A DNA stretch of 50,252 bases. It comes from Candidatus Methylomirabilales bacterium. GTDB taxonomy: Bacteria; Methylomirabilota; Methylomirabilia; Methylomirabilales; 2-02-FULL-66-22. Below, piece by piece: positions 15,325-38,197 of the stretch (position 1 is its first letter; each line of letters begins with the position of its first letter). Below the pieces are notes generated by a model. That model saw only the letters and a program-made list of their open reading frames with translations. It did not search any database and was not told the DNA's origin. The position numbers and the translations under genes were made by a program. The stretch is taken from contig JBHGAX010000003.1 of NCBI GenBank assembly GCA_041946635.1, positions 1-50,252 of the forward strand. The letters run 5' to 3'.

Positions 15325-15723
15325 ATGCCGTACCTGGTGGAGGGAACGCACGCCGGCGAGTTCATCCTGTGGGAGCCGCACGCCAGCTACAGCCGGGAGA
15401 ACGTCACGGTCATCGTCCCGGCGGCGACCACCCTGCCAGCGGGCGCCGTCCTGGTCGAGGGCGTGCTCGGCTGGGCGCCCATGACGGCGGAGACCGCCGT
15501 GGAGGGGGCGAACCTGGGGATCCTCTACGCGCCGCTCACAAACGACGGCGCCGCCCCGGCCAACATGGCGGGCGTCGTGATCGACAAGGTCGCGTCCGTG
15601 CGTGGCGCCGACCTCGACTGGAACAGCCAGGCCCAGGCCGTGGTGCTCACCGCCATGGCGTTGCTGCGCGCTCAGGGTGTCCTGGTCCGCGACTACACGC
15701 CGCCGGCGGACGCGGGGAGCTAA
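15325..15723 (+). CDS. head decoration protein (gpD-like)
   Basis: HAGEFI..E..SYSRE, GAVL, GIL motifs; lies between protease and capsid. Confidence 0.85.
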   Translation: MPYLVEGTHAGEFILWEPHASYSRENVTVIVPAATTLPAGAVLVEGVLGWAPMTAETAVEGANLGILYAPLTNDGAAPANMAGVVIDKVASVRGADLDWNSQAQAVVLTAMALLRAQGVLVRDYTPPADAGS

Positions 15724-15755
15724 GCCGGCCACTCACACACCGCTGAACTGGAGTC

Positions 15756-15803
15756 AAACGCCAGCATCGCCACCCTGATGCTGGCGTTTTCGTTTGTCCT
15801 CAC
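15756..15803 (+). terminator. hairpin plus U-tract element upstream of major capsid gene
   Basis: AAACGCCAGCATC / GATGCTGGCGTTT 13-bp stem followed by TCGTTTGTCC. Confidence 0.65.
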
Positions 15804-15836
15804 ATCCCCGGCCTGCCCGGGAGAACGGAGACAAAA

Positions 15837-16865
15837 ATGCCCACCCTGGATGTCTTCAAGGCGGATGGCTTCTCCATGACAAGCCTGACCAAGGCCATCA
15901 TCGAGACGCCGTTCAGGCCCCGGCGCATCGCGCAACTCGGCCTGTTCAGCGAGATGGGGGTCCCGACGACGAGCGTCATGATCGAGTCCAAGAGCGGGCA
16001 GCTCTCGCTCATCCAGAGCTCGCCCCGCGGTGGCGTCCCCGACACGATCGGCGGGGAGAAGCGGACGATCCGCTCCTTCAACGTCATCCACCTCGCCCGC
16101 GAATCACGGATCAACGCCGATTCCATCCAGGGGCTTCGGGCCTTCGGCTCGTCCTCCGAGATGGAGGCCGTGCAGCCGGTCGTCAACCAGCGCCTCACCA
16201 CGCTGCGCAACATGCACGAGGTCACGCTGGAGCACCTCCGGATCGGCGCCCTCAAGGGCCTGATCCTCGATGGCGACGGCAGCACCGTGCTCTACAACCT
16301 CTTCACCGAGTTCGGCGTCTCGCAGCAGACCGCGGACTTCGAGTTCACGAGCGACACCCTCGACGTGCGGGCCGCCTGCGTGGGCGTGATCCGGCAGATC
16401 GAGGACGTGCTCGGCGGCGCGAGCTACGAGGGCATCCGCTGCTTCTGCTCGTCTGGCTGGTTCGACGCGCTGGTCGGGCACGCCGAGGTCAAGGAGAGCT
16501 TCAAGTACCAGGAGGGCATCGTCCTGCGGAGCGATCTCCGCAACGGCTTCCGGTTCGGCGGCATCGACTTCGAGGAGTACCGCGGCAGCGTCCTGAAGGC
16601 GGACGGCAGCGGCTCCGTCCCCTTCATCGATGCCGACTGCGCCTACGCGTTCCCGGTGGGCGTGCAGCTCGAGCAGGGCGATCTGTTCACCACGTTCTTC
16701 GCGCCGGCGGACTTCATGGAGACCGTCAACACGATCGGCCTCCCGCTGTACGCCAAGATGGCCTTCGACGAGAAGTACAACCGCTGGGTGGAGATCCACT
16801 CGCAGAGCAATCCGCTGCCGCTCTGCCTGATCCCGCGGGCGGTCGTGAAGCTGACGCAGAGCTAA
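15837..16865 (+). CDS. major capsid protein (lambda gpE family)
   Basis: DGFSMTSLTKAI, LGLF, PRGG, TLEHLRIGALKG, FAPADFMETVNTIGLPLYAK, QSNPLPLC. Confidence 0.95.
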   Translation: MPTLDVFKADGFSMTSLTKAIIETPFRPRRIAQLGLFSEMGVPTTSVMIESKSGQLSLIQSSPRGGVPDTIGGEKRTIRSFNVIHLARESRINADSIQGLRAFGSSSEMEAVQPVVNQRLTTLRNMHEVTLEHLRIGALKGLILDGDGSTVLYNLFTEFGVSQQTADFEFTSDTLDVRAACVGVIRQIEDVLGGASYEGIRCFCSSGWFDALVGHAEVKESFKYQEGIVLRSDLRNGFRFGGIDFEEYRGSVLKADGSGSVPFIDADCAYAFPVGVQLEQGDLFTTFFAPADFMETVNTIGLPLYAKMAFDEKYNRWVEIHSQSNPLPLCLIPRAVVKLTQS

Positions 16866-16878
16866 GCCGGAGCCGCCG

Positions 16879-17208
16879 ATGTCTGACCTCCGCCCGGACG
16901 TCGCGATCCCCTTCGCGGCGTTCGGCGTCCCCGCAACCGTCACCGTGCCCGGCGCAGAGCCAGTGGAGACGTCTGCCATCTGGCTCGCGCCGGTCGCCTA
17001 CGAGGTGCCGGGCGTGCTGCGGTCCACCAACGAGCCGCTGTACACCCTGGCCCTCATGCGCTCGGCCGTGCCCCGCGTGCCACGCGGGACGCTCGTCGCG
17101 TGCCCCGAGCGGGCCGGCGGCGAGGTCCTGACCTGGACCGTCGAGGCGATCCTCGGCAAGACCGCGGACGAGATCCGCGTCATCGTCATCCCGACCGAGG
17201 CCGACTGA
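16879..17208 (+). CDS. head-tail joining protein (gpFII-like)
   Basis: FGVPATVT, PRGT; size and synteny. Confidence 0.7.
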   Translation: MSDLRPDVAIPFAAFGVPATVTVPGAEPVETSAIWLAPVAYEVPGVLRSTNEPLYTLALMRSAVPRVPRGTLVACPERAGGEVLTWTVEAILGKTADEIRVIVIPTEAD

Positions 17209-17210
17209 CC

Positions 17211-17774
17211 ATGATGCCCACGATCAAGGTGTCGATGGACACCACGCAGCTCAAGCGCGCGCTGGACCAGCTGGGCAGGCGCGCCCCGCAGGCCATCATG
17301 CGCGCGCTGAACAAGACGGCCCGGACGGTGCGCACGCAGGTCCTCCGCGAGATCCGGAAGGAGATCCGCCTGCCGGCGAAGGACCTCCGGCCCATGCTAC
17401 CCATGATCCCGGCCACCAAGGACCACCTGGAGGCCAAGATCGTGGCGCGGGGCCGGGCGATTTCCCTGATGCGCCTCGGGGCCAAGCAGACCCGGCTGGG
17501 CGTGACCTACAAGGGGCCGAGCGGCCGCGAGCTGATCCGGTCTGCCTTCATCGCGACGATGCCCGGGCGCCGGCGGCCAAACGTCTGGGCGCGCGAGGGC
17601 AAGCCGCGCCTCCCCATCGAGAAGCAGGTGGGCCCGGTCCTCTCCAATGTCGTGATCGAGAAGGGCATCTTCGCCGCGCAGCAGGCCAAGGCCGCCGAGG
17701 CCCTGGCCAAGAATCTGGCGCACGAGACGGCGTACCTGCTGGGCCAGGTCGCCAAGCGGAAGCTCCATGCCTGA
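17211..17774 (+). CDS. minor tail protein (gpZ-like)
   Basis: Basic protein with RALNKTA, SAFIATM, RLPIEK. Confidence 0.8.
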   Translation: MMPTIKVSMDTTQLKRALDQLGRRAPQAIMRALNKTARTVRTQVLREIRKEIRLPAKDLRPMLPMIPATKDHLEAKIVARGRAISLMRLGAKQTRLGVTYKGPSGRELIRSAFIATMPGRRRPNVWAREGKPRLPIEKQVGPVLSNVVIEKGIFAAQQAKAAEALAKNLAHETAYLLGQVAKRKLHA

Positions 17775-18231
17775 CGATCCGATCCGCGAGCGCATCCTGC
17801 AGCACTGCGAGGCGAGTCTCGCGCTGATCGACGGCGCGAGCGCCTACCACCACGCGCTAGCGGCCGTGCACCGGGGCGCGCCGCCGGCCCCTGAGGACCT
17901 GACGCAGCTCCCCGCCGTCTGGCTCCAGGAGGGGGACGAGGACGAGCCCCCCGAGGACAACTGGCTCCTGACCTGGGAGCTGCCGCTCACGGTGGACGGC
18001 TGGTGTCGCGCGGCCGACGGGGCCAACCTGCCCACGCTGGCCAACCGCCTCCTCGCCGACATGGAGCGCGCGCTCATGGTGGACCAGACGCGGGGCGGCC
18101 TGGCCAGGCGGACGCGGATCACGGGCCGGAGCATCACGGTGGACGCGGTGCCCGGCACGATGGCCTCCGCGCGGCTGCAGGCGGTCATCACGTACCACAC
18201 CCGCCGGGGCGATCCGGCGAATGCCGGCTAG
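17767..18231 (+). CDS. tail terminator protein (gpU-like)
   Basis: IRERIL, LPAV, DQTRGGLA, ITYHT; synteny. Confidence 0.75.
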   Translation: MPDDPIRERILQHCEASLALIDGASAYHHALAAVHRGAPPAPEDLTQLPAVWLQEGDEDEPPEDNWLLTWELPLTVDGWCRAADGANLPTLANRLLADMERALMVDQTRGGLARRTRITGRSITVDAVPGTMASARLQAVITYHTRRGDPANAG

Positions 18232-18344
18232 GGGAGTCTGAGAGTGGCAACGCGGATCTACAGCGCATCCTCGCGTTAGCAGCTCCCATCCTGGTAGGGC
18301 TGGTAGCGCTGTACTTCACGCTGTGAATGAAAGGAGAAGCCAAC

Positions 18345-18641
18345 ATGCCTCCCACGCAGGTGCTCCCCGCGTCCCGGTTCAATGTCGACATGCCCGCGAC
18401 CGGCGGACTTGCCTCATCCGTGCGCTTCAAGTGGGGCGCCAGTCCCGGTGAGTACACCGGGCACAGGGACTTTCCCATGGAGCCGAACTTCAGTAAGCCG
18501 ATGGGCGAGGTGCTGCCGGAGCCTGGCGTGTACTACGTGGCGGCCTGTGGCGTCAACGACCTGGGCGAGGGCGCGCTGTCGAATGAAGTGAACGTGGACT
18601 ACCGCGTGCCGGATGCCCCGTCCCTTGGCCTCAGCGTCTAG
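18345..18641 (+). CDS. small fibronectin type III/Ig-like protein
   Basis: FKWGASPGEYT...YYVAACGVNDLGEGALSNEV; AAGGAG RBS. Confidence 0.65.
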   Translation: MPPTQVLPASRFNVDMPATGGLASSVRFKWGASPGEYTGHRDFPMEPNFSKPMGEVLPEPGVYYVAACGVNDLGEGALSNEVNVDYRVPDAPSLGLSV

Positions 18642-18706
18642 GCGAGACTGAGCGCGTCCAGGAGGGCAGTGACCCTGCTCTCGTGGACGCGCATAGGGAG
18701 CGGCAC

Positions 18707-19513
18707 GTGATCCTTGCTCCATTAAGCGGCCAGTTGAGCCCGTTGGGAGTTGCATCGCGGAGCGTCCTTCCTGCGGGCGATGATCCGTGGGTGCCCACGA
18801 GCGTGCCCGGTTGCCGGCTCTGGCTGGACTCCGGGAGGATCACTGGGAAGGTGGACGGCAATCCGGTAGAAGCCTGGCAGGACGAGAGCGGCCAGGCGAA
18901 TCACGTGAACCAGGTCGAAGAAACGAGGCTGCCGGTCTACAAGACCAACGTCTTGAATGGGCAACCCGTTGTACGGTTCGACGGCGCGGATGACTTCCTT
19001 GCCAGTGCCGGATATCAAACGGGCGAAGCCCTGACGGTATTCTTTGTATGTGCCAGACCGTGGAACGTCGCGAGCTACCGCGCCGTGTTTGCGAAGGGGT
19101 ATGGGGCCGCCCCTTATCCTGGAGTCGCTGTGTATCAGGTAGGCGGCGCGTTCGAGGATTGGCAGCCCAAAGACATTGTGGTTTTGGGGAATGGGTATCC
19201 CAATACACGGTATCCCCGTGCAGTGGGAGCGCCTGGACTGCTTGTAGATGGCACGTTCTACATTGTCGCGGTTCAGCTAGGCGCCGCACTCTCGCGGTTT
19301 TGGCTGAACGGCGCCGTTCAGAGCGTCATTGAGCGGACTGCAGCCGTTCCCGTTGACACGAATCCGTTTACCATCGGCGCGAAACAGGGCGGGAGAGACC
19401 ATTGGGATGGCGACATCGCCGAAGTGATCTACTACGACCGCGCGCTGACGGTTGAGGAAATGGCACAGGTCGAACAGTACTTGGCCACTAAGTACGGGAT
19501 CGCGCTTGCGTAG
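18707..19513 (+). CDS. LamG/concanavalin A-like domain virion protein
   Basis: LWLDS, WQDESG, NGQPVVRFDGADD, TIG..WDGDIAEVIYYDRALT, VEQYLATKYG; lower GC. Confidence 0.8.
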   Translation: MILAPLSGQLSPLGVASRSVLPAGDDPWVPTSVPGCRLWLDSGRITGKVDGNPVEAWQDESGQANHVNQVEETRLPVYKTNVLNGQPVVRFDGADDFLASAGYQTGEALTVFFVCARPWNVASYRAVFAKGYGAAPYPGVAVYQVGGAFEDWQPKDIVVLGNGYPNTRYPRAVGAPGLLVDGTFYIVAVQLGAALSRFWLNGAVQSVIERTAAVPVDTNPFTIGAKQGGRDHWDGDIAEVIYYDRALTVEEMAQVEQYLATKYGIALA

Positions 19514-19522
19514 GAGGCGTTC

Positions 19523-20644
19523 ATGCTGGAGCAGGTCTCCCAAGACGTCACGTTCTACGCGTTCTTTACGGCGAGCAAGCAGGGCAAGACGGGCCTCTCG
19601 CCCACTGTGGACGTATACAATCCGGCCGGCACCAAGATCGTGTCGGACGGTGTGGTCACGGAGTTGGGCGGCGGGCTGTACTCCTATGTCCTGGCGAGCG
19701 GGAGCACCGCCACGGAGGGCGAGTACACGGCGGTCTTCAAGACGGCCGACAGCACGGTGGATCAGCAGCACGTGCCCTCGCTGTGGGTGATTGGCCGTGC
19801 GGGCATCGAGGATCTGGACGCGCTGGTCTCCTCGCGGTTGGCGGCTGCGAGCTACACGGCCCCGGACAACGCGACCATCGCCGCCATCGCCGCCGCCATC
19901 ACCACCAACCTTGACGTGGCTATCTCGACCCGGCTCGCGGCGGCAGGCTACACCGCACCGGACTCCGCGGCGACCATCGCGGCGGCGGTGTGGGCCTCCG
20001 GCGTGCGGACGCTCACCAGCTTTGGGACCCTCGTGGCGGACCTCGCGGCGGCGGTGTGGGCCTACGTGACCCGGAGCCTGACGGACAAGGTGGGCTTTGC
20101 GCCCAGCGCGACCCAAAACGCGTCGGCAGTCCTCGATGTCTCGGCGGCTGACCATAAGGTGCCCGGGACCGTCGGCGCGAAGATCAATCAGGCCGGCAGC
20201 GCGGCGGACCCACTGGAAAACCTAGTGCCGGGAAGCTACACCGCAGGAACCGCGGGGGCGGCGCTTGGCCGGATTGGCTCCGGGCAGATCGTCACGTCGT
20301 CCCCCGTCGCATCGTCCGGCGCCGTCACCATCGTCCGGGGCAATGACTACGCGGCGGCCGACGGCCGGGCCCTCACCTGGACGGACGCCGGCGGGACCTG
20401 GCCCAACCTCACGGGCGCGACTGTGCGCCTCCGCGTGGCGGGCCTCAGCGTCACGGGGACCGTCGTCCAGGCGACCGGACCGGGGATCGTGCGGGTGGAG
20501 CTCACAGCCGAGCAGACCGCGGCGCAGACGCCGCGCGTCCGGGCCCCCTATGACCTGGAGGCCACGCTCAGCTCCGGGCGCGTGGTCACGCTGGTCCGCG
20601 GGCACTGGACCGTCCTGGCCGACGTGCCGGCCGCGGGGGCCTGA
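19523..20644 (+). CDS. Ala/Thr/Ser-rich putative virion structural protein
   Basis: AGGAGG RBS; repeats LD..SSRLAAA.YTAPD x2 and AAAVWA...R.LT x2; beta-rich C-terminus (YDLEAT). Confidence 0.65.
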   Translation: MLEQVSQDVTFYAFFTASKQGKTGLSPTVDVYNPAGTKIVSDGVVTELGGGLYSYVLASGSTATEGEYTAVFKTADSTVDQQHVPSLWVIGRAGIEDLDALVSSRLAAASYTAPDNATIAAIAAAITTNLDVAISTRLAAAGYTAPDSAATIAAAVWASGVRTLTSFGTLVADLAAAVWAYVTRSLTDKVGFAPSATQNASAVLDVSAADHKVPGTVGAKINQAGSAADPLENLVPGSYTAGTAGAALGRIGSGQIVTSSPVASSGAVTIVRGNDYAAADGRALTWTDAGGTWPNLTGATVRLRVAGLSVTGTVVQATGPGIVRVELTAEQTAAQTPRVRAPYDLEATLSSGRVVTLVRGHWTVLADVPAAGA

Positions 20645-20650
20645 CGCGCC

Positions 20651-21769
20651 ATGCGCTCTGCGATCATCTCCGCGCCGGTCCGGATCTTCCGCCGGCATGC
20701 CACGGTGGACCCGCATCAAGGCGCCTGGCTGGCCCTCCGCCGGCGCGTCGGGGCCCGGCCCTCCGGCATCGTGCAGTTTCCCACGCGGCGCTCCCGGCTG
20801 GACGAACTCCAGCCCGGGGAGTCGCTGCTCATCGTGCGGAAGTACGGTGGCCTCGGAGACATCCTCATCAGCTCCATGCTGTTCCCGATGCTGGCCGCCC
20901 AGTACCCGGAGATCCGCGTCACCTACGCCGTGCCGCGGCACTATCACCCGCTGTTCGAGCGGAGCGGCCTCCAGTTGCTCGCCTACGAGGATGTGTTCGC
21001 GGTTGGGACGGATTACCACCGCTCGGCCGTGCGGGACGCAGTCGTCCAGGCCTATGACCTGATCGAGGACATTTCGATCGGGTGCCACGTCTGGGAGAAC
21101 TTTTTTGTCGCGTACGGCGGGGTGGACGGGGACGGCCACGGACTCCGCTGGCGCAACCGCCTGGACATGTGGGGCCGATGGTTCGGCCTGCAGGTCGCGG
21201 CGCCGCGGACCTGCATCGTGATCCGGGAGGAGGAGCGCGCGGCCGCGCGGCGGCTCCTGGCACAGACGCTCCGCGGGATCGGCCCGGTCTGCCTGCTGGC
21301 GCCGTTCACGGCATCGCCGACGAAGAACTACCCGTGGTTCGCGGAACTGGTCGCCGGCCTCGCGGGGCGCGGCTACCGGGTGGGCCTCCTGCACAACGCC
21401 CCGGTGCCGGGACCCGTGCCCACACTCACCGGCCTCTCCCTCCGGGAGATGGGCGCGGCCTGCGCCGCGGCAGACCTGATCGTCGCGGCCGACACGGCAG
21501 CCTTCCACTGGGGCGGGATCCTCGGCACGCGGACGGTCGGGATCTTCAACGTCAACGACGGGGCGGCCTACTGCCGCTACTACCCGACGGCCGTGCCCGT
21601 GCAGACGTGTGCAAGCCCCTGCATCAACGTCCGGTATCGGGACTGCGCGCGGCACCTGTCGGCGGCCCAGCTGCCCACCGTGCCGGGGGTGGCGCTCTCC
21701 CGCTGCTACCCGCGGGCGACGGTGGACCAGATCCTGGAGGCGGTCCCGTGCATCACTGCTGCCTCCTGA
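20651..21769 (+). CDS. glycosyltransferase, GT9 (heptosyltransferase-like) family
   Basis: LIVRKYGGLGDIL, KNYP, LSLREM..ACAAADLIVAADTAAFHWGGILGTRTVGIF, PC. Confidence 0.85.
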   Translation: MRSAIISAPVRIFRRHATVDPHQGAWLALRRRVGARPSGIVQFPTRRSRLDELQPGESLLIVRKYGGLGDILISSMLFPMLAAQYPEIRVTYAVPRHYHPLFERSGLQLLAYEDVFAVGTDYHRSAVRDAVVQAYDLIEDISIGCHVWENFFVAYGGVDGDGHGLRWRNRLDMWGRWFGLQVAAPRTCIVIREEERAAARRLLAQTLRGIGPVCLLAPFTASPTKNYPWFAELVAGLAGRGYRVGLLHNAPVPGPVPTLTGLSLREMGAACAAADLIVAADTAAFHWGGILGTRTVGIFNVNDGAAYCRYYPTAVPVQTCASPCINVRYRDCARHLSAAQLPTVPGVALSRCYPRATVDQILEAVPCITAAS

Positions 21770-22740
21770 CCCCGGCGGCCCGCGATGTGTGGCGGAACAG
21801 CGGCCACGCGCTCATCGTGGCCGGGATCAAGCACCTGGTGCGCGAGGCGCAGCCCGACGCCGTGTTTCACGTGATCGACCTGATGCAGCGGGACGCCGAC
21901 TGCTGGGGCTGGGCCAGGGCGCACGCGGACAGCCTGGTGCTCTGCGGCATCCCGCGGCTGGGCTCCGACCTGCGGCGCTACCGGGACTTCGGATTCTGGG
22001 AGGATGTCCTCGCGGTCAAGGCGGCCGGCGTCAAGGTCGCGGACCTGTTCCCCGGCGTGCACGTCGCTTGGCAGCCGACCGTGGAGGCGGCCCGGGACCT
22101 GGTCCTCGTGGCCGACTGCAACCGGACCGTCCTGGCATACGAGCGCAGCCTGGACCTCGTCCTGCCGCGGGATGCCATCTTCGCGGCCGCGGCGGAGGCC
22201 CTGGGCGACCAGTACCCCGTCATGCCCTGCGGCTCCTGGTGGGCGCGGTACTGGTGGGGCATCGAGCCACGCGCGCCGGACTGCCACGTGATCGTCGTGC
22301 GGGCCGACGAGCGGGTGCCCGCCGGGGCCCTCGTGGCGTTGGCTCGGCACCAGCGGGCGCTCGCCGAGACGCGCCCGACCGTGGCCGTCACGCGCAACGC
22401 GGGGGACTTCCACCACGCGCAGGACGCCGGCCTGCAGCACGTGGCGCTCGTGACCGAGTCGGACGACCTGCTGAGGCTCCTGGCCCGGGCGGACGTGCTC
22501 GTGTCCCTCTGCGTGCACGCCACCATCCCGGCGCTCGCGTTCGGCGGGATCGGCGTGGTCAACGTGGCGATCGATTCGCGGGCGGCCGCCGTGGACGCCT
22601 TCGGGGTCGTGTCGCATCCCCTGGAGGCGCTGCAGGCCGAGCGGCTGCCAGAGGCGCAGCGGGTGTCCGGCGGCCTGGCGGCGCAGATGCATCTCTACCA
22701 GGAGCGATTCTGCCGGCTGTGGAAGGAGCGCATGTGCTGA
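21748..22740 (+). CDS. polysaccharide pyruvyl transferase-like protein
   Basis: NSGHALI (cf. NxGD), PRD, SLCVHATIPALAFG (cf. RLHxxIxA); GGAGG RBS before GTG. Confidence 0.6.
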   Translation: MHHCCLLTPAARDVWRNSGHALIVAGIKHLVREAQPDAVFHVIDLMQRDADCWGWARAHADSLVLCGIPRLGSDLRRYRDFGFWEDVLAVKAAGVKVADLFPGVHVAWQPTVEAARDLVLVADCNRTVLAYERSLDLVLPRDAIFAAAAEALGDQYPVMPCGSWWARYWWGIEPRAPDCHVIVVRADERVPAGALVALARHQRALAETRPTVAVTRNAGDFHHAQDAGLQHVALVTESDDLLRLLARADVLVSLCVHATIPALAFGGIGVVNVAIDSRAAAVDAFGVVSHPLEALQAERLPEAQRVSGGLAAQMHLYQERFCRLWKERMC

Positions 22741-23291
22741 CGCGTGAGCTGAGCCTCGAAGAGAAAGCCGCGCTCGCCCCGAAGAACGGGGGGCGGGTGA
22801 TCCCGCCCCTACGCCTGAATCTCGGCTGTGGCGCCGATTGGATGGGCGGGGGCGTGGTCAACATGGATTGCAGGAACCTCCTGCCCCCGGACGGCATGAC
22901 CTTTCTCCGAGCCGACGTCGCCGACCTCCGGGACATGTTCGCGGACGGCGCGGCCGCGGAGATCTGGGCCAAGGACGTGCTGGAGCACGTCCCCCAGGTG
23001 AAGGCCGGTGCCGTCCTGGACGAGTGGATCCGGTTGCTCGCACCGGGCGGGCTCCTCCACCTCAAGACGCCGGACCTGCAGGCGCTCGCGCGGTTCATCC
23101 TGGAGGGGCGGGCGTCGGATGAGGTCAAGGCGTACCGGGTCTATGGCGGCCAGGATTACGCCGAGAACTTCCACCGGGCCGGGTTCACGGTCGCCATGCT
23201 CTCCGCGATGCTCACGGTCCGGGGGATGGAGATCGTGTCGGCGAAGGGCCACGAGGGCACGAACCTGCTGATCACGGCGCGCAAGCGATAG
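22734..23291 (+). CDS. class I SAM-dependent methyltransferase
   Basis: LNLGCG, VNMD, DVLEHV, EWIRLLAPGGLLHLKTPD, YGGQ...H. Confidence 0.85.
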   Translation: MLTRELSLEEKAALAPKNGGRVIPPLRLNLGCGADWMGGGVVNMDCRNLLPPDGMTFLRADVADLRDMFADGAAAEIWAKDVLEHVPQVKAGAVLDEWIRLLAPGGLLHLKTPDLQALARFILEGRASDEVKAYRVYGGQDYAENFHRAGFTVAMLSAMLTVRGMEIVSAKGHEGTNLLITARKR

Positions 23292-23314
23292 CAGCACCGT
23301 ATCTGCCACAGACG

Positions 23315-23356
23315 ACGCCAGCGGAGAGTCCCGCTGGCGTTTTTCTTTGTCCACAC
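23315..23356 (+). terminator. hairpin plus U-tract element upstream of tail tube gene
   Basis: ACGCCAGCGG / CCGCTGGCGT stem followed by TTTTCTTTGTCC. Confidence 0.65.
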
Positions 23357-23383
23357 GCCGCGGGGCGAGAGGAGGGCCGAGAG

Positions 23384-23911
23384 ATGCCGCCGAGCAGCGA
23401 CAACCTGGAGCTGGGCCCCTGCAACGTCTACCTCGAGGAGAGCGCGGTCGACGTGAACGTCGGCTACCTCGGCAACGTCACGCTCAATCTCGGCTCCGAG
23501 GCCGCGCCGCTCACGGCCTCGCAGCGCGGCACGAGCCCGGTGGACAAGGTGCTCACTGGCGGCAGCGTGCAGCTGACGATCGAGTTCAAGGAGCTCACGC
23601 TGCAGAACTTCGCGCGCGCCTTTCCGCATGCGGTCTTGACCGGCGACAACGGCCGCGTGGACTTCACCAACCGGGTCGGCCTCTCGCTGCGCAGCCTCGC
23701 CAAGAAGCTCACGCTCAAGAAGATCGTGGGCGGCGTGGAGAGCGCCCTGGCCAAGGACATCCTCGTCATCCCGGAGGCCTCGCCGGTGGAGGGGGAGCTG
23801 AGCGTCGAGTTCAACGCGGAGACCCAGCGCGTCCTGGCCGCGACCTTCGAGGCCTGGCCGAACGACACCACGGGGCGCTGGGGGTACTTCGGCGACGAGT
23901 TGGCGTCGTAG
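23384..23911 (+). CDS. major tail (tube) protein
   Basis: LELGPCNVY...VGY...GTSPVD; strong RBS; precedes chaperones and tape measure. Confidence 0.75.
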   Translation: MPPSSDNLELGPCNVYLEESAVDVNVGYLGNVTLNLGSEAAPLTASQRGTSPVDKVLTGGSVQLTIEFKELTLQNFARAFPHAVLTGDNGRVDFTNRVGLSLRSLAKKLTLKKIVGGVESALAKDILVIPEASPVEGELSVEFNAETQRVLAATFEAWPNDTTGRWGYFGDELAS

Positions 23912-23944
23912 GGCGCGCCCTCACCGCCACGCAAAGGAGATCCG

Positions 23945-24343
23945 ATGCCTCCGCAGGACGAGTACCTCATCGACCTGGACGCCTTCGCCCCGGCGCCCGG
24001 GCGGACCATCAAGTTCCGGGGCCGGCTGTACCCGGTCCGGAACTTCAACGACGTGCCGCTGGACGATGCCCTCCTGCTGCTCCGGGCGGAGCAGGAGCTG
24101 CAGGGCAAGACCCCGCGCGAGCAGCTCGAGCTCGGCCTCCGCTACATGCAGATCCTCGTCCCCGACATGGACCGGGCCACGCTCGGCACCCTCTCGGCGA
24201 GTCAGATCCTCCTGGTCGTGCAGGGCGCCATGGGGGCCGCCGAGGTCCCTCCGATGGCCGGCGCGGCGCCCTCCGCCTCGGGCACCAATTCGCCCGCGTC
24301 GGCCGGTTCTACGGGTGGGGATGGTCCGAGATCCGCCGCCTGA
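23945..24343 (+). CDS. tail assembly chaperone (gpG-like)
   Basis: AAAGGAG RBS, IDLD start; low-complexity tail after VPP. Confidence 0.7.
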   Translation: MPPQDEYLIDLDAFAPAPGRTIKFRGRLYPVRNFNDVPLDDALLLLRAEQELQGKTPREQLELGLRYMQILVPDMDRATLGTLSASQILLVVQGAMGAAEVPPMAGAAPSASGTNSPASAGSTGGDGPRSAA

Positions 24344-24570
24344 GCCTCCGCCAGCTCGGGCGGTTCCTGGAGCTGATCCCGGAGATCCACGCGCAGGAGC
24401 AACTCGACCAGGCGGCGGTCGCGCTCCTGCCGATCCTGAAGGACTCGCTGCGCCGCGACCTGTTCCGTGCCTGGACGCGGGCGGCCCGGGCGGCCGAGGT
24501 CACCCCGCGCCAGGTCAATCATGACCAGGCGTGGGACAGCCTCCGCAGCATGGTGGGAGCGAGGCGTTAG
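24250..24570 (+). CDS. tail chaperone frameshift extension (gpT-like, -1 frame; start approximate)
   Basis: -1 frame reads RFYGWGWSEIRRLSLRQL with no evident RBS/start of its own; ends adjacent to tape measure ATG. Confidence 0.65.
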   Translation, partial: SDGRRGALRLGHQFARVGRFYGWGWSEIRRLSLRQLGRFLELIPEIHAQEQLDQAAVALLPILKDSLRRDLFRAWTRAARAAEVTPRQVNHDQAWDSLRSMVGARR

Positions 24571-26247
24571 ATGGCCACGCGCATCAAGTTCGCCGAGGCG
24601 CTGCTCAAGATCGTCGCGGACGACTCGGCGCTCAACAAGCAGCTCGCGGGCATCGAGAAGACCGTCGGCGAGGCGGGCAAGCGCATGGCGTCCGGCATGA
24701 AGACCGCCATGCTGGCCGTCACGGGCGCGATCACGGCGGGCGCCGGGGGCCTCGCGCTGGTCCTCAAGACGACGGCGGACGCCGGAGACCAGCTCGCGAA
24801 GATGAGCCAGCGGGTCGCGATCGGGACGGAGATCCTGTCCGGCTACAAACTGGCGGCCGACCTCGCCGGCGTGGAACTGGCGGAGTTCGGCAAGGGCCTG
24901 CAGATCCTCTCCCGCAACATCGTGGAGACCTCGCAGGGGACGGGCACGGCCAAGGACGCCTTCGCCGCCCTCGGCATCAAGGTCACCGACTCGGGCGGGA
25001 AGCTGAAGACCGCCGAGCAGATCATGCTCGAGGTCGCCGACAAGTTCTCGAAGATGGAGGACGGGGCCAAGAAGACGGCCTACGCCATGGACATCTTCGG
25101 GAAGTCGGGCGCCAACATGATCCCCATGCTGAACGCCGGCCGGGCCGCCCTGGAGGCGCAGCGCAAGGAGGCGGAGCTGTTCGGCGCCACGTTCAACACG
25201 GTGCAGGCCAAGGCGGCGGAGGAGTTCAACGACACCTTGACCAGCATCGGCGGGGCGGTCAAGGGCTTCGCCACGATGGTCGGGAACTACCTCATCCCGC
25301 TGGCAAACGAGGTCCTGGGCCGGCTCCTGGCCAAGTTGAAGGAGCTGGCCGAGTCCGGGCAGCTCCGGCTCTGGGCGGTGCAGACCGCGGAGGCGATCGT
25401 CAAAGGCTTCGTCTGGGCGGCGCAGGCCGTGGCCAAGCTGGCCGAGGCGAGCATGTTCGTGGTCAACACGTTCCGCCTGATCATGGCCGCCGCCGAGACG
25501 CTGAACGCCACGGTGATGGCTGTACTCCGCGAGCTGATGGCGATGATCGGCAAGGTCATCCAGGGGGCCGCCTGGACCGCGGAGAAGCTGGGCCTCTCGA
25601 TCGCGCAGCCACTCCGCGACGCCCAGCGCGTGATGGAGGACTGGAGCACGACGTTCGGGCACGCCGCGACCCAGGCAGCCGACAAGGCCATCGGCTGGTG
25701 GGATGCGATCGGCAAGGGCAACAAGCAGGCCGAGGAGTTCGCGACCCGGGTCAACAGCATGGCCGAGGCCTTCGAGGCTTGGGCGGGGAAGGCCATCGCC
25801 GCGAGTGTGGCGGCCGCGGCCGGCCTCGACCTGCAGACCGGCGCGATGAAGAAGGCCGCCGACCAGGCCGCCCAGATGGAGACCATCACCTATGAGGTGA
25901 ACGGCCAGACGCGGACCATGCAGGTGCCGAAGACGCCAACGTCCATCTGGTCCGGGACGGGCACCCCGCCGGCCGCGGCGGCCGCAGCGAGCGCCTTAGC
26001 CACGCCGGCGAAGGCTGCACCCGTCGCCGCAAGCCCTGCGGCGGCCGCGGCCGCGAGCGCCTCGCCCGAGGCCTTCGCGGGCAACTACCTCAAAGCGTGG
26101 GAGAGTGTGGAGACGGCGGCGACCCGGATCCTGGATGGCCTCAAGGCCAAGGCCCGCGACGCGCACAGTCAGGTGGTCGAGAGCCTGTACGACGTGGTGA
26201 AGCGCCGGCTCATCGAGGACCTGCAGGACGAGGCGGCGAGGAGCTGA
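24571..26247 (+). CDS. tape measure protein
   Basis: Helical Ala-rich sequence; DAFAALGI, AMDIFGKSGANMIPMLN; synteny. Confidence 0.9.
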   Translation: MATRIKFAEALLKIVADDSALNKQLAGIEKTVGEAGKRMASGMKTAMLAVTGAITAGAGGLALVLKTTADAGDQLAKMSQRVAIGTEILSGYKLAADLAGVELAEFGKGLQILSRNIVETSQGTGTAKDAFAALGIKVTDSGGKLKTAEQIMLEVADKFSKMEDGAKKTAYAMDIFGKSGANMIPMLNAGRAALEAQRKEAELFGATFNTVQAKAAEEFNDTLTSIGGAVKGFATMVGNYLIPLANEVLGRLLAKLKELAESGQLRLWAVQTAEAIVKGFVWAAQAVAKLAEASMFVVNTFRLIMAAAETLNATVMAVLRELMAMIGKVIQGAAWTAEKLGLSIAQPLRDAQRVMEDWSTTFGHAATQAADKAIGWWDAIGKGNKQAEEFATRVNSMAEAFEAWAGKAIAASVAAAAGLDLQTGAMKKAADQAAQMETITYEVNGQTRTMQVPKTPTSIWSGTGTPPAAAAAASALATPAKAAPVAASPAAAAAASASPEAFAGNYLKAWESVETAATRILDGLKAKARDAHSQVVESLYDVVKRRLIEDLQDEAARS

Positions 26248-28397: not shown

Positions 28398-30266
28398 GTG
28401 GCCTATACCGTTGCGGATATCACCGGCAGCGCCTCGACGCTCGCCCACGAGACGGTGGGCCGACCGCTTGGGGTGCTGAGCGACGGCTCGCTGGTGGCCG
28501 TGGGCCGGAAGACGGACTACAGCATCGTCGTCTTCCGGTCCACCGATGGGGGCGAGAGCTGGGCGGAGGCCCTGACCGTCTGCAACGACGGGAACGTCGC
28601 GTTCGAGGCGACGGTCTGGGGCGATGAGGTCGCTGTCTCGACCGGCGCCTGGGCCCTGAATACCGCGGTGAAGTTCTACCGCGCGGCGTTCAGCGGGGGC
28701 AGCTTCTCGCTGGAGGTCAACGGCGCCACGCTGGCGTCCGGGGATGCCGCCTACAAGTACTCGCGCCGCCGGTTCATCAAGGATCCGAATGGCCGCTGGT
28801 GGTGCGCCGCCCTGCGCGATGACGGCGGCACCGGCAAGGCCATCGTCACCAAGTACTCGACGGACGGCGGCTCGAGCTGGGCCGCGACCTGGACGGTGCA
28901 CTACAACGCGAACACGCCACTCGGGCCGGTCCTGCTGTCGGGCACGACGAACCTGTTCCTGATGTTCAACGACAGCAACGGCGTGCGCTCGATGCACCGG
29001 CCGCACGCGAACGCGCCCGACCAGGGCTGGACCGCCTCGACGCAGCGGCGCGCGACGGCCGCCCGGAGCTACAACCACCAAGCGGCGCCGCTCCACGGCG
29101 ACACGAGTACCTGGCTGTTCGTCGGGGCGGAGTACGGCAACGGCGATCTGTACGCGATCAAGATGGTCGACGGGGTGAACCCGACCTTCACGGACCACGG
29201 GAAGTACACGGACGTCTCGCCGGAGACCTGCGACTGGCAGTGCGTGATGGGGCTCGCGGACGGCTGGATCATGCCGTACCTCCGTACCGGGAGCCTGGGG
29301 ACGCTCCGCTGGAAGACCTGCGACCTGTCAGGGAACTACTCGGGCGAATCGACGTACGCGCTCGCTACCGCGGCCCCGAACCAGTACAGCTTGCAGGTCG
29401 CGCACAGCGGGCCTGGCACGATCGCGAATGAGAATTTGTTCGCCGCCTGGGACCATGCCACGGCGACGTGCAGCTCCCTGGTATCGCTGCCTGCCCCCGC
29501 GATCGAGGTCGCCCGCCTGTTCCGGGTACCGGTTGAGGTCGGGGTCCACGTCGCTCGCCTGTTCCGCGTGCCGGTCGAACAGTGGCAGCCCTACGTCGCG
29601 CGCCGCTTCCGGGTACCGGTCGAAGCCCGAAAGCGAGTCGGCCTGCGCTTCTGCGTCCCGGTCGAAACGCGGATCACGCAACCAGTCACCCATCTCTTCC
29701 GGGTGCCGGTCGCGATCGCGCAGAACGCAGGGCGCCGCTTCCGCGTCCCGGTGGAGATCGCGGGGACGGCCCGCCTACAGCGGCAGTGCTGGATCCCCGT
29801 GGAGCACCGGGCAACCCGCCGCCGGGGCGTCCTCGTGCCGATCGAGTGGGAGATGGGCCGGATCCGCCGCTACGCCATGGTGCCGATCGAGGCGGGGGGC
29901 GGGCTGGGCCGGCCCATCCGGATCCCGGTGGAGGCCGCCGGCACTCTCCGTCCCGGGCACGCCTTCCGCGTGCCGCTGGAAATGGGCCGGCGCGTGCAGC
30001 GCGCCTTTAGGCTCCCGGTGGAGATGGCCGGCGAGGACTCCACGGCGTTCCTCGACACGTTCGTGGTCCGCGCGACGGTGCGCGAGTCGTTCCTGGATGA
30101 ATGGCTGGTCCTGCCGGGGCTGGTCGAGGACTTCCTGGACGAGTGGGTCGTGCGCTCCGTGATGGGCGGGGACTTCGTGGATACCTGGGACGTCGTGCCG
30201 GCCGGCATCCTGACCGACTTCGCGGACGACATCCAGCTCCCGGTCGGGACCGTGGAGGGGGATTGA
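28398..30266 (+). CDS. putative tail fibre/receptor-binding protein with Asp-box N-domain and repeat shaft
   Basis: Asp boxes RSTDGGESW and YSTDGGSSW; about 12 FRVPVE-like and 4 FLDxW-like repeats. Confidence 0.6.
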   Translation: MAYTVADITGSASTLAHETVGRPLGVLSDGSLVAVGRKTDYSIVVFRSTDGGESWAEALTVCNDGNVAFEATVWGDEVAVSTGAWALNTAVKFYRAAFSGGSFSLEVNGATLASGDAAYKYSRRRFIKDPNGRWWCAALRDDGGTGKAIVTKYSTDGGSSWAATWTVHYNANTPLGPVLLSGTTNLFLMFNDSNGVRSMHRPHANAPDQGWTASTQRRATAARSYNHQAAPLHGDTSTWLFVGAEYGNGDLYAIKMVDGVNPTFTDHGKYTDVSPETCDWQCVMGLADGWIMPYLRTGSLGTLRWKTCDLSGNYSGESTYALATAAPNQYSLQVAHSGPGTIANENLFAAWDHATATCSSLVSLPAPAIEVARLFRVPVEVGVHVARLFRVPVEQWQPYVARRFRVPVEARKRVGLRFCVPVETRITQPVTHLFRVPVAIAQNAGRRFRVPVEIAGTARLQRQCWIPVEHRATRRRGVLVPIEWEMGRIRRYAMVPIEAGGGLGRPIRIPVEAAGTLRPGHAFRVPLEMGRRVQRAFRLPVEMAGEDSTAFLDTFVVRATVRESFLDEWLVLPGLVEDFLDEWVVRSVMGGDFVDTWDVVPAGILTDFADDIQLPVGTVEGD

Positions 30267-37778: not shown

Positions 37779-38197
37779 GGGCGGGCCTCGCGCCGCGTCT
37801 TCTCGCGGTGCACCGCCGCGGGCAGCCACTGCATGTTGCTCGGATGATCCGGGCCGCCGCGGTGGAGCGGGATAATATGGTCGACCTCACAGTCGGGGCA
37901 GCCCGCCGGCTTGGGGTGCGTGCGCTGGAACTCCCGGAGCGCCTTCTCGTCCCGGTCGATCCGGCCGTGCGCGTCGCGGGGGCAGGTGGGGCACTTCACG
38001 CCCGATGCCGGCGAGCTGGGCAGCGGGCGCGTCTCGCTGGGCACGGAGGGGGCGGCGCTGGAGCCAGGCGCGCTCCGGTAGTGCGGCCGGACGTAGGTGC
38101 CGTCCTTCCGCGTGTAGCCGCGGACCTGGGCGGCGTCGGCGAGATTGGCGAAGAGCGTGAGGAGCACGAGCGCAGCGGTGACCAGGGCGCGGACCAT
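37775..38197 (-). CDS. signal-peptide-bearing HNH protein
   Basis: MVRALVTAALVLLTLFANLADA signal, VRGYTRKDGTYVRPHYRS, EVDHIIPLHRGGPDHPSNMQWL...H; GGAGG RBS. Confidence 0.8.
   Translation of the reverse strand: MVRALVTAALVLLTLFANLADAAQVRGYTRKDGTYVRPHYRSAPGSSAAPSVPSETRPLPSSPASGVKCPTCPRDAHGRIDRDEKALREFQRTHPKPAGCPDCEVDHIIPLHRGGPDHPSNMQWLPAAVHREKTRREARP

What the first reader, a model, noticed from the sequence alone, without database searches (positions are those of the whole stretch)
20651..23291. GT9 glycosyltransferase, pyruvyltransferase-like protein and methyltransferase inside the virion operon: candidate virion glycan-coating system
Seen: three overlapping genes sit between the tail terminator and tail tube on the late strand, and none shows an obvious signal peptide or TM segment. 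Known: GT9 enzymes transfer heptose in LPS core synthesis; pyruvyl and O-methyl groups cap glycans; some mycobacteriophages glycosylate capsid and tail proteins using glycosyltransferases in structural operons. Inference: this lambdoid phage builds a sugar (possibly heptose) chain on its own virion proteins and caps it. Late placement favours this over lysogenic serotype conversion. I do not know of this enzyme trio being characterised.
Basis: partly seen in the sequence, partly recalled or inferred. Interest (0 to 1): 0.8.

Follow-up and report, generated by a model that had tools for sequence, protein, structure and literature searches.

The report
Glycan enzymes inside phage virion operon
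A soil phage carries, among its particle-building genes, a heptosyltransferase-like enzyme, a pyruvyltransferase-like enzyme and a methyltransferase that probably decorate the virus particle with capped sugars, a habit so far shown only for phages of mycobacteria.

Summary
They overlap by 22 and 7 nt, between the tail terminator and the tail tube of a lambda-like temperate phage.

The trio is not the conserved unit. Of 34 related loci, 26 reach far enough downstream. In 24 of those 26 the A-type gene is followed by a methyltransferase. This pair always lies inside the structural operon, either terminator-to-tube or capsid-to-adaptor. B is a rare accessory gene that travels with a LamG/fibre-like gene pair.

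More distant phages, including Pseudomonas phage D3 (orf12/orf13), carry an analogous GT9-like + methyltransferase pair in the same operon. Others pair the GT9-like gene with a pyruvyltransferase-like gene.

A is phage-specific. It has native codon usage, a conserved catalytic Asp and sugar-nucleotide motif, and four invariant C-terminal cysteines that recall the iron finger of the protein heptosyltransferase TibC.

Best reading, at about 0.5: a late-expressed system that glycosylates a virion protein. No acceptor is shown. Modification of host LPS or of DNA remains possible. I rate it a new variant of a known kind, and it is directly testable in phage D3.

The parts
20651..21769 (+). Gene A: phage-specific GT9-like GT-B glycosyltransferase (372 aa). 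The catalytic Asp lies in the GGLGD motif (D70) and the sugar-nucleotide motif is D281-x4-H286. C145, C320, C324, C332 and C352 are invariant.
   Evidence: PF01075 E 5.1e-6, 26.4 bits, above the cut-off of 22. The family profile hits WaaF 1psw at E 4.1e-5, with the GD and D..H motifs aligned. The AF2 model has pLDDT 84.8. VIA Z is 21.3 for 3tov, 20.6 for TibC, 20.1 for WaaF and 18 for WaaC, against 11 or less for non-GT9 GT-B enzymes.
21748..22740 (+). Gene B: divergent member of the polysaccharide pyruvyltransferase family (PF04230), GT-B-like fold, 330 aa. It is an accessory gene, not part of the conserved core.
   Evidence: It has no Pfam, PHROG or NCBIfam hit of its own. The ESM Atlas gives structure TM 0.85 to PS_pyruv_trans clusters. 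There are 89 relatives by phmmer, and 40 of the 43 I aligned hit PF04230. The AF2 model has pLDDT 95.7. Pvg1p scores Z 14.9, tied with generic GT-B enzymes whose top Z is 16.1. The start codon is fixed by homologues.
22734..23291 (+). Gene C: small class I SAM-dependent methyltransferase (185 aa), the conserved partner of A.
   Evidence: Methyltransf_11 scores 23.4 bits, above the cut-off of 21.2; Methyltransf_23 gives E 1.2e-5. The motif LNLGxG is invariant in 8 homologues. A methyltransferase follows A in 24 of 26 informative loci.
23314..23351 (+). Terminator-like hairpin plus the GCTGGCGTTTT..TTTGTC tail, between C and the tube gene. A twin lies at 15756-15798, in front of the major capsid gene.
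   Evidence: 11-pair stem, 8 G-C. (2 matches in the window, 0 in 100 shuffles)..
17767..18231 (+). Tail terminator (gpU-like), the upstream boundary of the inserted block.
   Evidence: phrog_4204 E 1.3e-11. Its homologue lies 80 nt or less upstream of A in 14 related loci.
18327..20644 (+). Accessory genes u104 (18327-18641), LamG-domain protein (18683-19513) and Ser/Thr-rich p373 (19523-20644). They are absent from most relatives, but the order LamG-p373-A-B recurs in L055.
   Evidence: Laminin_G_3 E 7.6e-12; phrog_10356 'virion structural protein' E 5.4e-28; phrog_1084 for p373. LamG and u104 are codon-usage outliers.
23384..23911 (+). Tail-tube-position gene (175 aa). It is co-inherited with the A+C pair across two different head/neck module types, and is a candidate acceptor only.
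   Evidence: phrog_2175 E 5.9e-18. It is followed by a chaperone-like gene and the tape measure. Homologues of 45-83% identity occur in loci with A+C.

Best explanation
The window is a lambda-like temperate siphophage. Its late structural operon carries a phage-specific glycan-building module.

Proposed mechanism:
- Gene A is a GT9-type GT-B glycosyltransferase. It takes a nucleotide-activated sugar from the host pool, most likely ADP-heptose, and transfers it in the cytoplasm onto a component of the assembling virion.
- Gene C then O-methylates the sugar using SAM.
- In this phage, gene B adds a further cap, most likely a pyruvate ketal from PEP.

The result would be a virion protein bearing short, capped sugars. 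This is analogous to protein heptosylation by TibC/AAH and to virion glycosylation in mycobacteriophages.

Shown here: the gene structure, the folds and families, the conserved catalytic motifs, the conserved A+methyltransferase pairing, and its constant location in structural operons.

Inferred: the donor sugar, the order of reactions, late expression, and above all the acceptor. The tube protein, a head protein or the fibre-like p373 are only candidates.
For: 1. A is a genuine GT9-type enzyme.
- The Pfam score is above the gathering threshold.
- VIA Z is 20-21 to GT9 structures, against 11 or less for other GT-B enzymes.
- The GxGD Asp and the D-x4-H motif are invariant and align to WaaF.

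2. The pairing with a methyltransferase is conserved.
- There are 34 related loci, which form 21 clusters at 95% nt identity or more.
- 24 of the 26 loci with at least 250 nt downstream of A have a methyltransferase within 800 nt. By cluster this is 16 of 21.
- Extra sugar-type Methyltransf_24/TylF-like methyltransferases stand beside C or are fused to it.

3. The pair always lies among structural genes, in two different architectures.
- The terminator gene lies 80 nt or less upstream of A in 14 loci; in 11 of them the tube gene is also seen downstream.
- HK97 capsid, a small ORF, A and C, with the head-tail adaptor seen downstream in 5 of these 9 loci.

4. There is non-orthologous recurrence.
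- A phage with a related tube (L022) has a GT4-type glycosyltransferase in its structural operon.
- Nine loci with distant B relatives all have an adjacent GT9-like 'p338' gene. Three of the four I annotated lie between head and tail genes.
- p338 relatives include Pseudomonas phage D3 orf12, which sits next to the methyltransferase orf13, between head closure and tail completion genes.

5. A, B and C look like long-resident late genes.
- The genes overlap, and I found no sigma-70-like promoter.
- Their codon usage is indistinguishable from the structural genes, whereas LamG is an outlier.

6. A is phage-restricted.
- Only 2 loci turned up in one genome for each of 185,579 species. L011 is phage-like; L012 is a 3.3-kb contig.
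- There is no close copy elsewhere in the binned genome.

7. Four invariant C-terminal cysteines occupy the same general place as the 4-Cys iron finger of the protein heptosyltransferase TibC. TibC ties for best structural match (Z 20.6, rmsd 2.9-3.6).

8. The binned genome has an RfaE domain I gene above the cut-off, a GmhA-like gene and 12 other GT9 hits. A heptose donor is therefore plausible.

9. Virion glycosylation by phage-encoded glycosyltransferases is reported for mycobacteriophages Che8 and Rita. I saw this only as a passage in PMC11256854.
Against: - No acceptor is identified and no glycosylated protein is shown. All evidence for a virion target is positional.
- Characterised GT9 enzymes mostly act on the LPS inner core.
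- A is basic (39 K+R against 29 D+E). That would equally suit a membrane/LPS or DNA partner.
- A lacks TibC's N-terminal beta-barrel (secondary structure). Its cysteine spacing also differs from TibC's.
- A terminator-like hairpin separates C from the tube gene.
- One tube-homologue locus (L028) shows no glycosyltransferase in 5.8 kb upstream.
- The link from family A to the D3-type family is weak (hhalign E 0.0027, probability 11%). D3 orf13 barely resembles C (E 0.025).
- B's structure does not separate pyruvyltransferases from ordinary GT-B glycosyltransferases.
- The host is assigned only by binning.
Confidence: 0.5

Rival explanations
1. Host envelope modification. A adds a sugar to the host's LPS core or another surface glycan, and C and B cap it. 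This would change the receptor, giving lysogenic conversion, superinfection exclusion, or protection of progeny from re-adsorption to debris.
For: GT9 enzymes classically heptosylate the LPS inner core, and WaaF and WaaC are close structural matches (Z 18-20). The phage is temperate, with an integrase at 36756-37829. A is basic and soluble, like peripheral LPS transferases. A survey of P. aeruginosa prophages lists GT9 + SAM methyltransferase genes under 'viral defense proteins' (PMC10449497, passages seen). Pyruvyl and methyl caps are typical of polysaccharide termini; this is established knowledge of PF04230 and O-antigen capping.
Against: The genes are translationally coupled inside the late operon, far from the integrase and immunity region. 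Their codon usage is native and I found no promoter of their own. The pair keeps to structural operons across two architectures, and in D3-type phages as well. Family A is almost absent from cellular genomes and unlike the 12 GT9 genes of the binned genome. No flippase, polymerase or membrane protein accompanies it.
Confidence: 0.2
2. DNA hypermodification. A glycosylates a hydroxymethylated base in phage DNA and C and B elaborate the sugar, protecting the genome from restriction.
For: Phage GT-B enzymes that put heptose, Kdo and other sugars on 5hmC are described, some in neighbourhoods with structural genes (bioRxiv 10.1101/2023.12.21.572611; abstract and passages seen). The window encodes a C5-cytosine methylase at 1-861 plus two other DNA methylases. 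A is basic.
Against: Those clusters are defined by a C5-methyltransferase and a 5mYOX/TET enzyme next to the glycosyltransferase. Here the C5 methylase is 20 kb away. No TET/JBP-like or hydroxymethylase family was found among the window ORFs I scanned. Every flank of the A+C pair in related loci is structural. T4 beta-glucosyltransferase is not among the 50 entries listed by the VIA re-alignment of A.
Confidence: 0.07
3. Another cytoplasmic target. The enzymes would modify a host protein or small molecule during takeover, as EarP rhamnosylates EF-P. Alternatively, A serves a mainly structural or chaperone role in assembly without catalysis.
For: EarP appears among the lower GT-B matches. The acceptor is unknown. 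TibC-type enzymes recognise folded protein substrates (PMC4358343).
Against: The catalytic and donor-binding motifs are invariant, which argues for catalysis. The constant pairing with sugar-type methyltransferases points to a glycan product. The position in the structural operon is unexplained by host takeover.
Confidence: 0.15

Closest known systems
Bacterial autotransporter heptosyltransferases (BAHT: TibC, AAH)
   Same: Both have a GT9-like GT-B catalytic domain. TibC ties for best structural match (Z 20.6, rmsd 2.9-3.6 over 270-276 residues). Both are soluble cytoplasmic enzymes encoded beside their protein substrate. Both have four conserved cysteines late in the C-lobe; in TibC these are Cys339/342/358/370 binding iron, and in A they are C320/C324/C332/C352.
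   Different: A has no N-terminal beta-barrel. The cysteine spacing differs. No autotransporter is nearby. There is no sequence-level hit to TibC. The oligomeric state is unknown.
LPS heptosyltransferases WaaC/WaaF (CAZy GT9, PF01075)
   Same: A scores above the Pfam gathering threshold. The GxGD catalytic Asp and the D..H donor motif align. VIA Z is 18-20.
   Different: Identity is only 15-18%. NCBIfam equivalog scores are far below cut-off (17 against 185 bits). A has a family-specific conserved insert (WRNRLD, C145) and a Cys cluster. It is phage-restricted and sits in a virion operon.
Virion glycosylation of mycobacteriophages (Che8, Rita; Freeman et al. 2023)
   Same: Phage-encoded glycosyltransferases are thought to coat virion proteins with glycans. 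Capsid glycosylation forming a 'glycan shield' is stated in PMC11256854.
   Different: I could not read the primary paper. By recall, those enzymes are not GT9 and the hosts are actinobacteria. In Maravista the glycosyltransferase genes lie near the 3' end of the genome, not between tail genes.
Pseudomonas phage D3 orf12-orf13 and relatives (PAJU2, PMG1, PP9W2, vB_PaeS-D14C/O/Q)
   Same: A GT9-like gene is followed by a methyltransferase inside the head-tail operon of a temperate siphophage of a Gram-negative host. Both have a C-terminal Cys/His motif.
   Different: The relationship is only remote (p338 profile against the A profile: E 0.0027). The D3-type proteins are shorter (about 275 aa). 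They lie between head closure and tail completion genes. Their function is likewise unknown.
Polysaccharide pyruvyltransferases (PF04230: Pvg1p, CsaB, WcaK)
   Same: 40 of 43 aligned relatives of B match PF04230. The ESM Atlas structure TM is 0.85. Pvg1p scores Z 14.9 with 14% identity.
   Different: B itself is below Pfam detection. Its structure is equally close to nucleotide-sugar GT-B enzymes. It is phage-encoded and lies next to a GT9-like gene.
Phage C5-MT/5mYOX/GT DNA-glycan clusters
   Same: Both involve a phage GT-B enzyme and possibly heptose, sometimes near structural genes.
   Different: There is no adjacent C5-methyltransferase or dioxygenase. A is GT9-like rather than T4-BGT-like.

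Membership tests
CAZy GT9 / Pfam PF01075 glycosyltransferases | Match to the family profile above the curated threshold | tested here: met
   PF01075 scores 26.4 bits against a cut-off of 22, E 5.1e-6. By precomputed Pfam domains, 43 of the 58 listed proteins carry PF01075.
CAZy GT9 / Pfam PF01075 glycosyltransferases | GT-B fold closest to solved GT9 enzymes | tested here: met
   VIA Z is 21.3 (3tov), 20.6 (TibC), 20.1 (WaaF) and 18 (WaaC). The next non-GT9 enzymes score 11 or less.
CAZy GT9 / Pfam PF01075 glycosyltransferases | N-lobe GxGD catalytic Asp and C-lobe D-(S/T)-x-x-x-H donor motif | tested here: met
   G69, D70, D281 and H286 are invariant in 22 sequences. They align to WaaF VGD and NDSGLMH. 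The assignment of residue roles is recalled from the WaaC literature.
CAZy GT9 / Pfam PF01075 glycosyltransferases | Transfers heptose from ADP-heptose | not testable with these tools
   Only the availability of a pathway in the binned genome was checked.
BAHT (TibC/AAH) protein heptosyltransferases | Four-cysteine iron-finger insertion in the C-lobe | tested here: inconclusive
   Four invariant cysteines lie at 320/324/332/352 of 372, against 339/342/358/370 of 406 in TibC. The spacing differs, and no residue-level structural alignment or model coordinates were available.
BAHT (TibC/AAH) protein heptosyltransferases | N-terminal beta-barrel domain (TibC residues 1-97) | tested here: not met
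   In the model, residues 1-56 are low-confidence with one helix (21-32) and no strands.
BAHT (TibC/AAH) protein heptosyltransferases | Encoded next to an autotransporter substrate | tested here: not met
   The neighbours are virion genes.
BAHT (TibC/AAH) protein heptosyltransferases | Dodecameric ring | not tested
   No oligomer prediction was run.
Polysaccharide pyruvyltransferase PF04230 (gene B) | Match to the family profile | tested here: inconclusive
   B itself has no hit at E 0.01 or better. 40 of 43 aligned relatives hit, best E 1e-20. Those relatives are tied to B by phmmer at E 6e-54 and weaker.
Polysaccharide pyruvyltransferase PF04230 (gene B) | Fold like a solved pyruvyltransferase | tested here: inconclusive
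   Pvg1p scores Z 14.9, rmsd 3.6, 240 aligned residues, at rank 11. It is tied with many nucleotide-sugar GT-B enzymes whose top Z is 16.1. The ESM Atlas gives TM 0.85 to PF04230 clusters.
Polysaccharide pyruvyltransferase PF04230 (gene B) | PEP-dependent ketal pyruvylation of a sugar | not testable with these tools
   This needs a biochemical assay.
Class I SAM-dependent methyltransferases (gene C) | Profile match and glycine-rich motif I | tested here: met
   Methyltransf_11 scores 23.4 bits against a cut-off of 21.2. L28-N29-L30-G31-x-G33 is invariant in 8 homologues. No structure was predicted for C.
Phage DNA-glycan hypermodification clusters (C5-MT + 5mYOX + GT) | GT adjacent to a C5-cytosine methyltransferase and a TET-like dioxygenase | tested here: not met
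   The C5 methylase is at 1-861, 20 kb away. No TET/JBP-like family was found in the scanned ORFs. Related loci have structural genes on both sides.
Prophage moron / serotype-conversion cassette | Autonomous unit with its own promoter and atypical composition, usually near the att/immunity region | tested here: not met
   Codon-usage scores for A, B and C (-0.66 to -0.77) fall within the structural-gene range (-0.58 to -0.82). The genes overlap. No sigma-70-like site was found, though this is a weak test in a 70% GC genome.

The most novel reading that the evidence does not exclude
Siphophages of Gram-negative bacteria, including the classical Pseudomonas phage D3, encode a phage-specific branch of GT9 enzymes with a metal-finger-like Cys motif. 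These enzymes, like TibC/AAH, would heptosylate folded proteins. Here the targets would be the phages' own tail tube or head proteins, after which partner enzymes methylate and sometimes pyruvylate the sugars. That would be the first virion glycan coat described outside actinobacteriophages, built from the host's LPS precursor pool.
Probability: 0.3. Interest if true: 0.85.

Novelty: new variant of a known kind. Interest (0 to 1): 0.63.

Why it matters
As far as the papers I saw state, virion glycosylation has been demonstrated for mycobacteriophages, where it shields particles from antibodies.

If GT9-like + methyltransferase modules do the same in phages of Gram-negative hosts, three things follow:
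- Many 'hypothetical' genes in structural operons gain a function. D3, PAJU2, PMG1 and numerous metagenomic phages are examples.
- Phage surface chemistry becomes a variable for therapy, affecting stability, adsorption and immune recognition.
- Protein heptosylation, so far a trait of autotransporter adhesins, would extend to viruses.

The hypothesis can be tested directly in a cultured phage (D3) with standard deletions and mass spectrometry.

Tried and rejected
- tblastn of A, B and C against 50,697 phage records: no match.
- PHROGs and PADLOC-type explanations: there are no PHROG hits for A, B or C. PADLOC was not searched.
- Sequence search of A's C-terminal 98 residues against PDB sequences, to align the Cys cluster with TibC: no hit at E 10 or better.
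- Search for longer, fused forms of A: none found, which is weak evidence.
- The A-family HMM and C by phmmer found nothing in the loci carrying B-like genes or in L022/L028. The partner of B-like genes there is the remote p338 family, not family A.
- p373 against PDB sequences: nothing. There is no meaningful tandem repeat in p373 DNA.
- The look-up of sequencing runs: no RNA holder was listed. The only holder is the likely source DNA run.
It never ran, so there is no result.
- The search of earlier findings was not open.
- Freeman et al. 2023 (PMC10527164) is not held.
- A 1-861 / 49178-50038 terminal repeat, suspected from equal ORF lengths, is not real.
- Foldseek against PDB for B did not list a pyruvyltransferase among its top rows. 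The wide VIA search did list one.
Full report
**What is there**

The window is 70% GC and is the whole of one 50,252-bp contig of a binned genome. A third-position GC frame plot separates real genes from the many spurious ORFs.

In the finding's span, three genes follow each other in three different frames:
- A, 20651-21769 (372 aa).
- B, 21748-22740 (330 aa).
- C, 22734-23291 (185 aa).

A and B overlap by 22 nt, and B and C by 7 nt. B's GTG start is fixed by five homologues that begin with the same eight residues. None of the three has a membrane-like segment.

**The phage**

The contig is a lambda-like temperate siphophage. Its genes, in order, are:
- gpA-type terminase, lambda-family portal, ClpP-type protease, gpD-like decoration protein and gpE-type capsid.
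- Head-tail attachment protein, gpZ-like tail completion and a gpU-like terminator (17767-18231).
- Then u104, a LamG-domain protein, p373, and A, B, C.
- Then a tube-position gene (23384-23911), a chaperone-like gene, the tape measure and distal tail genes.
- Finally lysozyme, an integrase on the other strand, and replication and recombination genes with three DNA methylases.

The one correction is that three more genes share the interval between terminator and tube.

**Gene A**

Pfam PF01075 (GT9) is matched above its gathering score. NCBIfam equivalogs for LPS heptosyltransferases I and II score far below cut-off.

The word-indexed search listed 58 proteins, of which 57 are at E 4.3e-33 or better. 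An alignment of 22 shows an invariant GD (G69, D70), an invariant D281...H286 motif, a family-specific W-R-N-R block, and five invariant cysteines: C145, C320, C324, C332 and C352.

The family profile hits E. coli WaaF (1psw, E 4.1e-5). The GD and D..H motifs align to their GT9 counterparts.

An AlphaFold model (pLDDT 84.8) matches GT9 structures far better than other GT-B enzymes:
- VIA Z 21.3 for 3tov.
- Z 20.6 for TibC (rmsd 2.9-3.6).
- Z 20.1 for WaaF.
- Z about 18 for WaaC.
- Z 11 or less for the rest. Foldseek agrees.

TibC is the protein heptosyltransferase of an E. coli adhesin. It carries a four-cysteine iron finger (Cys339/342/358/370 of 406) that is needed for assembly and substrate recognition (PMC4358343, passages read). 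A's four C-terminal cysteines lie in the same general region but are spaced differently. I could not superpose residues, so this remains a lead. A lacks TibC's N-terminal beta-barrel.

**Gene B**

B has no hit in Pfam, PHROGs or NCBIfam, and the word-indexed search found only three other proteins. An exhaustive phmmer search found 89 relatives. Of the 43 I aligned, 40 match PF04230, polysaccharide pyruvyltransferase.

The ESM Atlas places B with PF04230 clusters by features (0.96) and by structure (TM 0.85). Two of those clusters are viral.

The AlphaFold model is confident (pLDDT 95.7) and has a GT-B fold. Yeast pyruvyltransferase Pvg1p scores Z 14.9, but ordinary nucleotide-sugar glycosyltransferases score up to 16.1. 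Family membership therefore rests on the sequence chain, not on the fold.

**Gene C**

C matches Methyltransf_11 above threshold and has an invariant LNLGxG motif I. The best solved relative is only a generic methyltransferase (3bus, E 0.009). No structure was predicted for C.

**Recurrence**

Scans with the A alignment gave 10 viral, 2 genomic and 22 metagenomic loci. These 34 loci form 21 clusters at 95% nucleotide identity or more.

Downstream of A:
- 26 loci have at least 250 nt downstream of A, and 24 of them carry a methyltransferase within 800 nt.
- By cluster this is 16 of 21.
- L012 has a partial hit at E 2e-4.
- L053 and L060 end too early to tell.
- L055 has a B-like gene next and then ends.
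- L057 shows nothing in 643 nt.

The methyltransferase is C-type. In some lineages there is also a Methyltransf_24/TylF-like enzyme, which may lie before C (L001), after C (L003) or fused to C (L004, L007). Two lineages carry two tandem A paralogues (L004, L007).

Upstream of A:
- 14 loci have the gpU-like terminator 80 nt or less upstream, the lambda-like arrangement seen in the window.
- 9 loci have an HK97-type capsid gene and/or a small 88-aa ORF upstream. The adaptor is seen downstream in 5 of them.
- 1 locus has an adaptor-like hit upstream, 1 has p373, and 9 have no recognised upstream gene.

The tube protein (45-83% identical) is shared by both architectures, although the capsids differ.

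B, u104, LamG and p373 are absent from all of these loci except L055. There the order LamG-like, p373-like (51% identity), A (47%), B-like (36%) repeats the window's order. Two contigs also seem to hold both A and B homologues, judged only by equal contig lengths.

**Wider pattern**

A locus with a related tube but no A or C (L022) has a GT4-type glycosyltransferase after its head genes. Another such locus (L028) has none in the 5.8 kb upstream.

Nine viral loci encode distant B relatives at 27-33% identity. Four of them look like copies of one phage. All nine have an adjacent 'p338' gene, which shows:
- a GMGD motif and a C-terminal C-x-C...H...C motif;
- a collinear but weak profile match to family A (hhalign E 0.0027, probability 11%);
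- ESM Atlas neighbours that are mostly viral hypothetical-protein clusters, two of them with PF01075 on 45% of members.

Of the four loci I annotated, three lie between head and tail genes, one of them with a Methyltransf_24 gene alongside. The fourth lies elsewhere.

p338 finds 28 cultured-phage records, 22 of them from Pseudomonas. These include D3 orf12, PAJU2 ORF011, PMG1, PP9W2 and vB_PaeS-D14C/O/Q, at about 31% identity and E about 1e-22.

In D3, orf12 is followed by the methyltransferase orf13. The pair sits between head closure and the gp10-like, terminator and major tail genes. D14C has the same layout. In PAJU2 the two genes are annotated 'hypothetical protein', while two nearby ORFs (ORF010, ORF015) are annotated 'structural protein'.

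BFVD also holds many viral GT9-like models, mostly unnamed.

**Is it a moron?**

A, B and C use codons like the structural genes, with scores of -0.66 to -0.77 against a structural range of -0.58 to -0.82. LamG (-1.43) and u104 (-0.98) are outliers.

No sigma-70-like promoter was found in 15500-25000. This is a weak test at this GC content.

A strong terminator-like hairpin follows C (23314-23341). Its twin, with the same 19-nt tail motif, precedes the capsid gene. There are 2 matches in the window and 0 in 100 shuffles.

A and B have no close copy elsewhere in the binned genome. That genome does have 12 other GT9 hits, an RfaE domain I gene above cut-off and a GmhA-like gene.

**Reading**

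The best-supported explanation is a late, cytoplasmic glycan-building module whose product ends up on the virion. A transfers a sugar, probably heptose. C methylates it. B, where present, adds a further cap, probably pyruvate.

The families, motifs, pairing and location are shown. The donor, the order of reactions, the timing and the acceptor are inferred. I put this at 0.5.

The rivals are:
- Host LPS or envelope modification (0.2). This is favoured by GT9 precedent, and by how a prophage survey files such genes (PMC10449497).
- DNA glycan hypermodification (0.07). The required C5-MT/5mYOX neighbourhood is absent.
- Another cytoplasmic target or a non-catalytic role (0.15).

**Novelty**

Six literature searches, plus one on PP9W2, turned up no study of GT9-like, methyltransferase or pyruvyltransferase genes in phage structural operons among the listings and passages I saw.

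Virion glycosylation itself is reported for mycobacteriophages (passage in PMC11256854; the primary paper is not held).

I therefore rate this a new variant of a known kind. It has a concrete experimental handle in phage D3.

Noticed in passing
window 15756-15798 and 23314-23351 (+): There are two copies of a GC-rich hairpin followed by the identical tail GCTGGCGTTTT(NN)TTTGTC. One lies directly upstream of the major capsid gene and the other directly upstream of the tube gene. There are 2 matches in the window and 0 in 100 shuffles. It may be a read-through terminator or an mRNA-stabilising element in front of the two most abundant virion proteins.
   Followed up: partly
window 18327-20644: u104, a LamG-domain 'virion structural protein' and the Ser/Thr-rich (19.6%) p373 form an accessory block that is absent from most relatives. 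LamG and u104 are codon-usage and GC outliers. The order LamG-p373-A-B recurs in L055, so p373 is a possible dedicated acceptor or fibre.
   Followed up: partly
L022:4636-5682: A phage with a related tube protein (47% identity) carries a GT4-type glycosyltransferase (Glyco_trans_1_4, E 6.5e-12) in its head-tail operon instead of the GT9-like gene.
   Followed up: no
L038 (Pseudomonas phage D3) 7001-8396; L039; L040: D3 orf12 (annotated hypothetical) is a remote GT9-like protein with a C-terminal CxC...H.C motif. It sits next to the methyltransferase orf13 inside the structural operon. The same pair occurs in vB_PaeS-D14C (annotated) and at the same position in PAJU2 (ORF011/ORF012, both 'hypothetical'); the GT9-like gene alone was found in 22 Pseudomonas phage records.
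   Followed up: partly
P0006, P0029, P0034, P0036, P0058; L007:9264-9560: Some A homologues carry an N-terminal extension of about 45 aa with faint DUF7210 similarity (E 0.073). In L007 a separate small ORF with DUF7210 (E 0.0021) precedes A.
   Followed up: no
window 29508-29756: Three diverged 72-nt direct repeats, spaced 87-90 nt apart, lie inside the fibre-like gene 28398-30266, which has faint BNR/Asp-box hits.
   Followed up: no
G000, other contigs: The binned genome holding the phage contig has 12 further GT9 profile hits, an unusually large set. It also has an RfaE domain I gene and a GmhA-like gene.
   Followed up: no
window 1-3118: Three DNA methyltransferase genes stand in a row at the contig start: a C5-cytosine methylase cut by the contig end, a DUF6094-like gene, and an N6/N4 methylase.
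   Followed up: no
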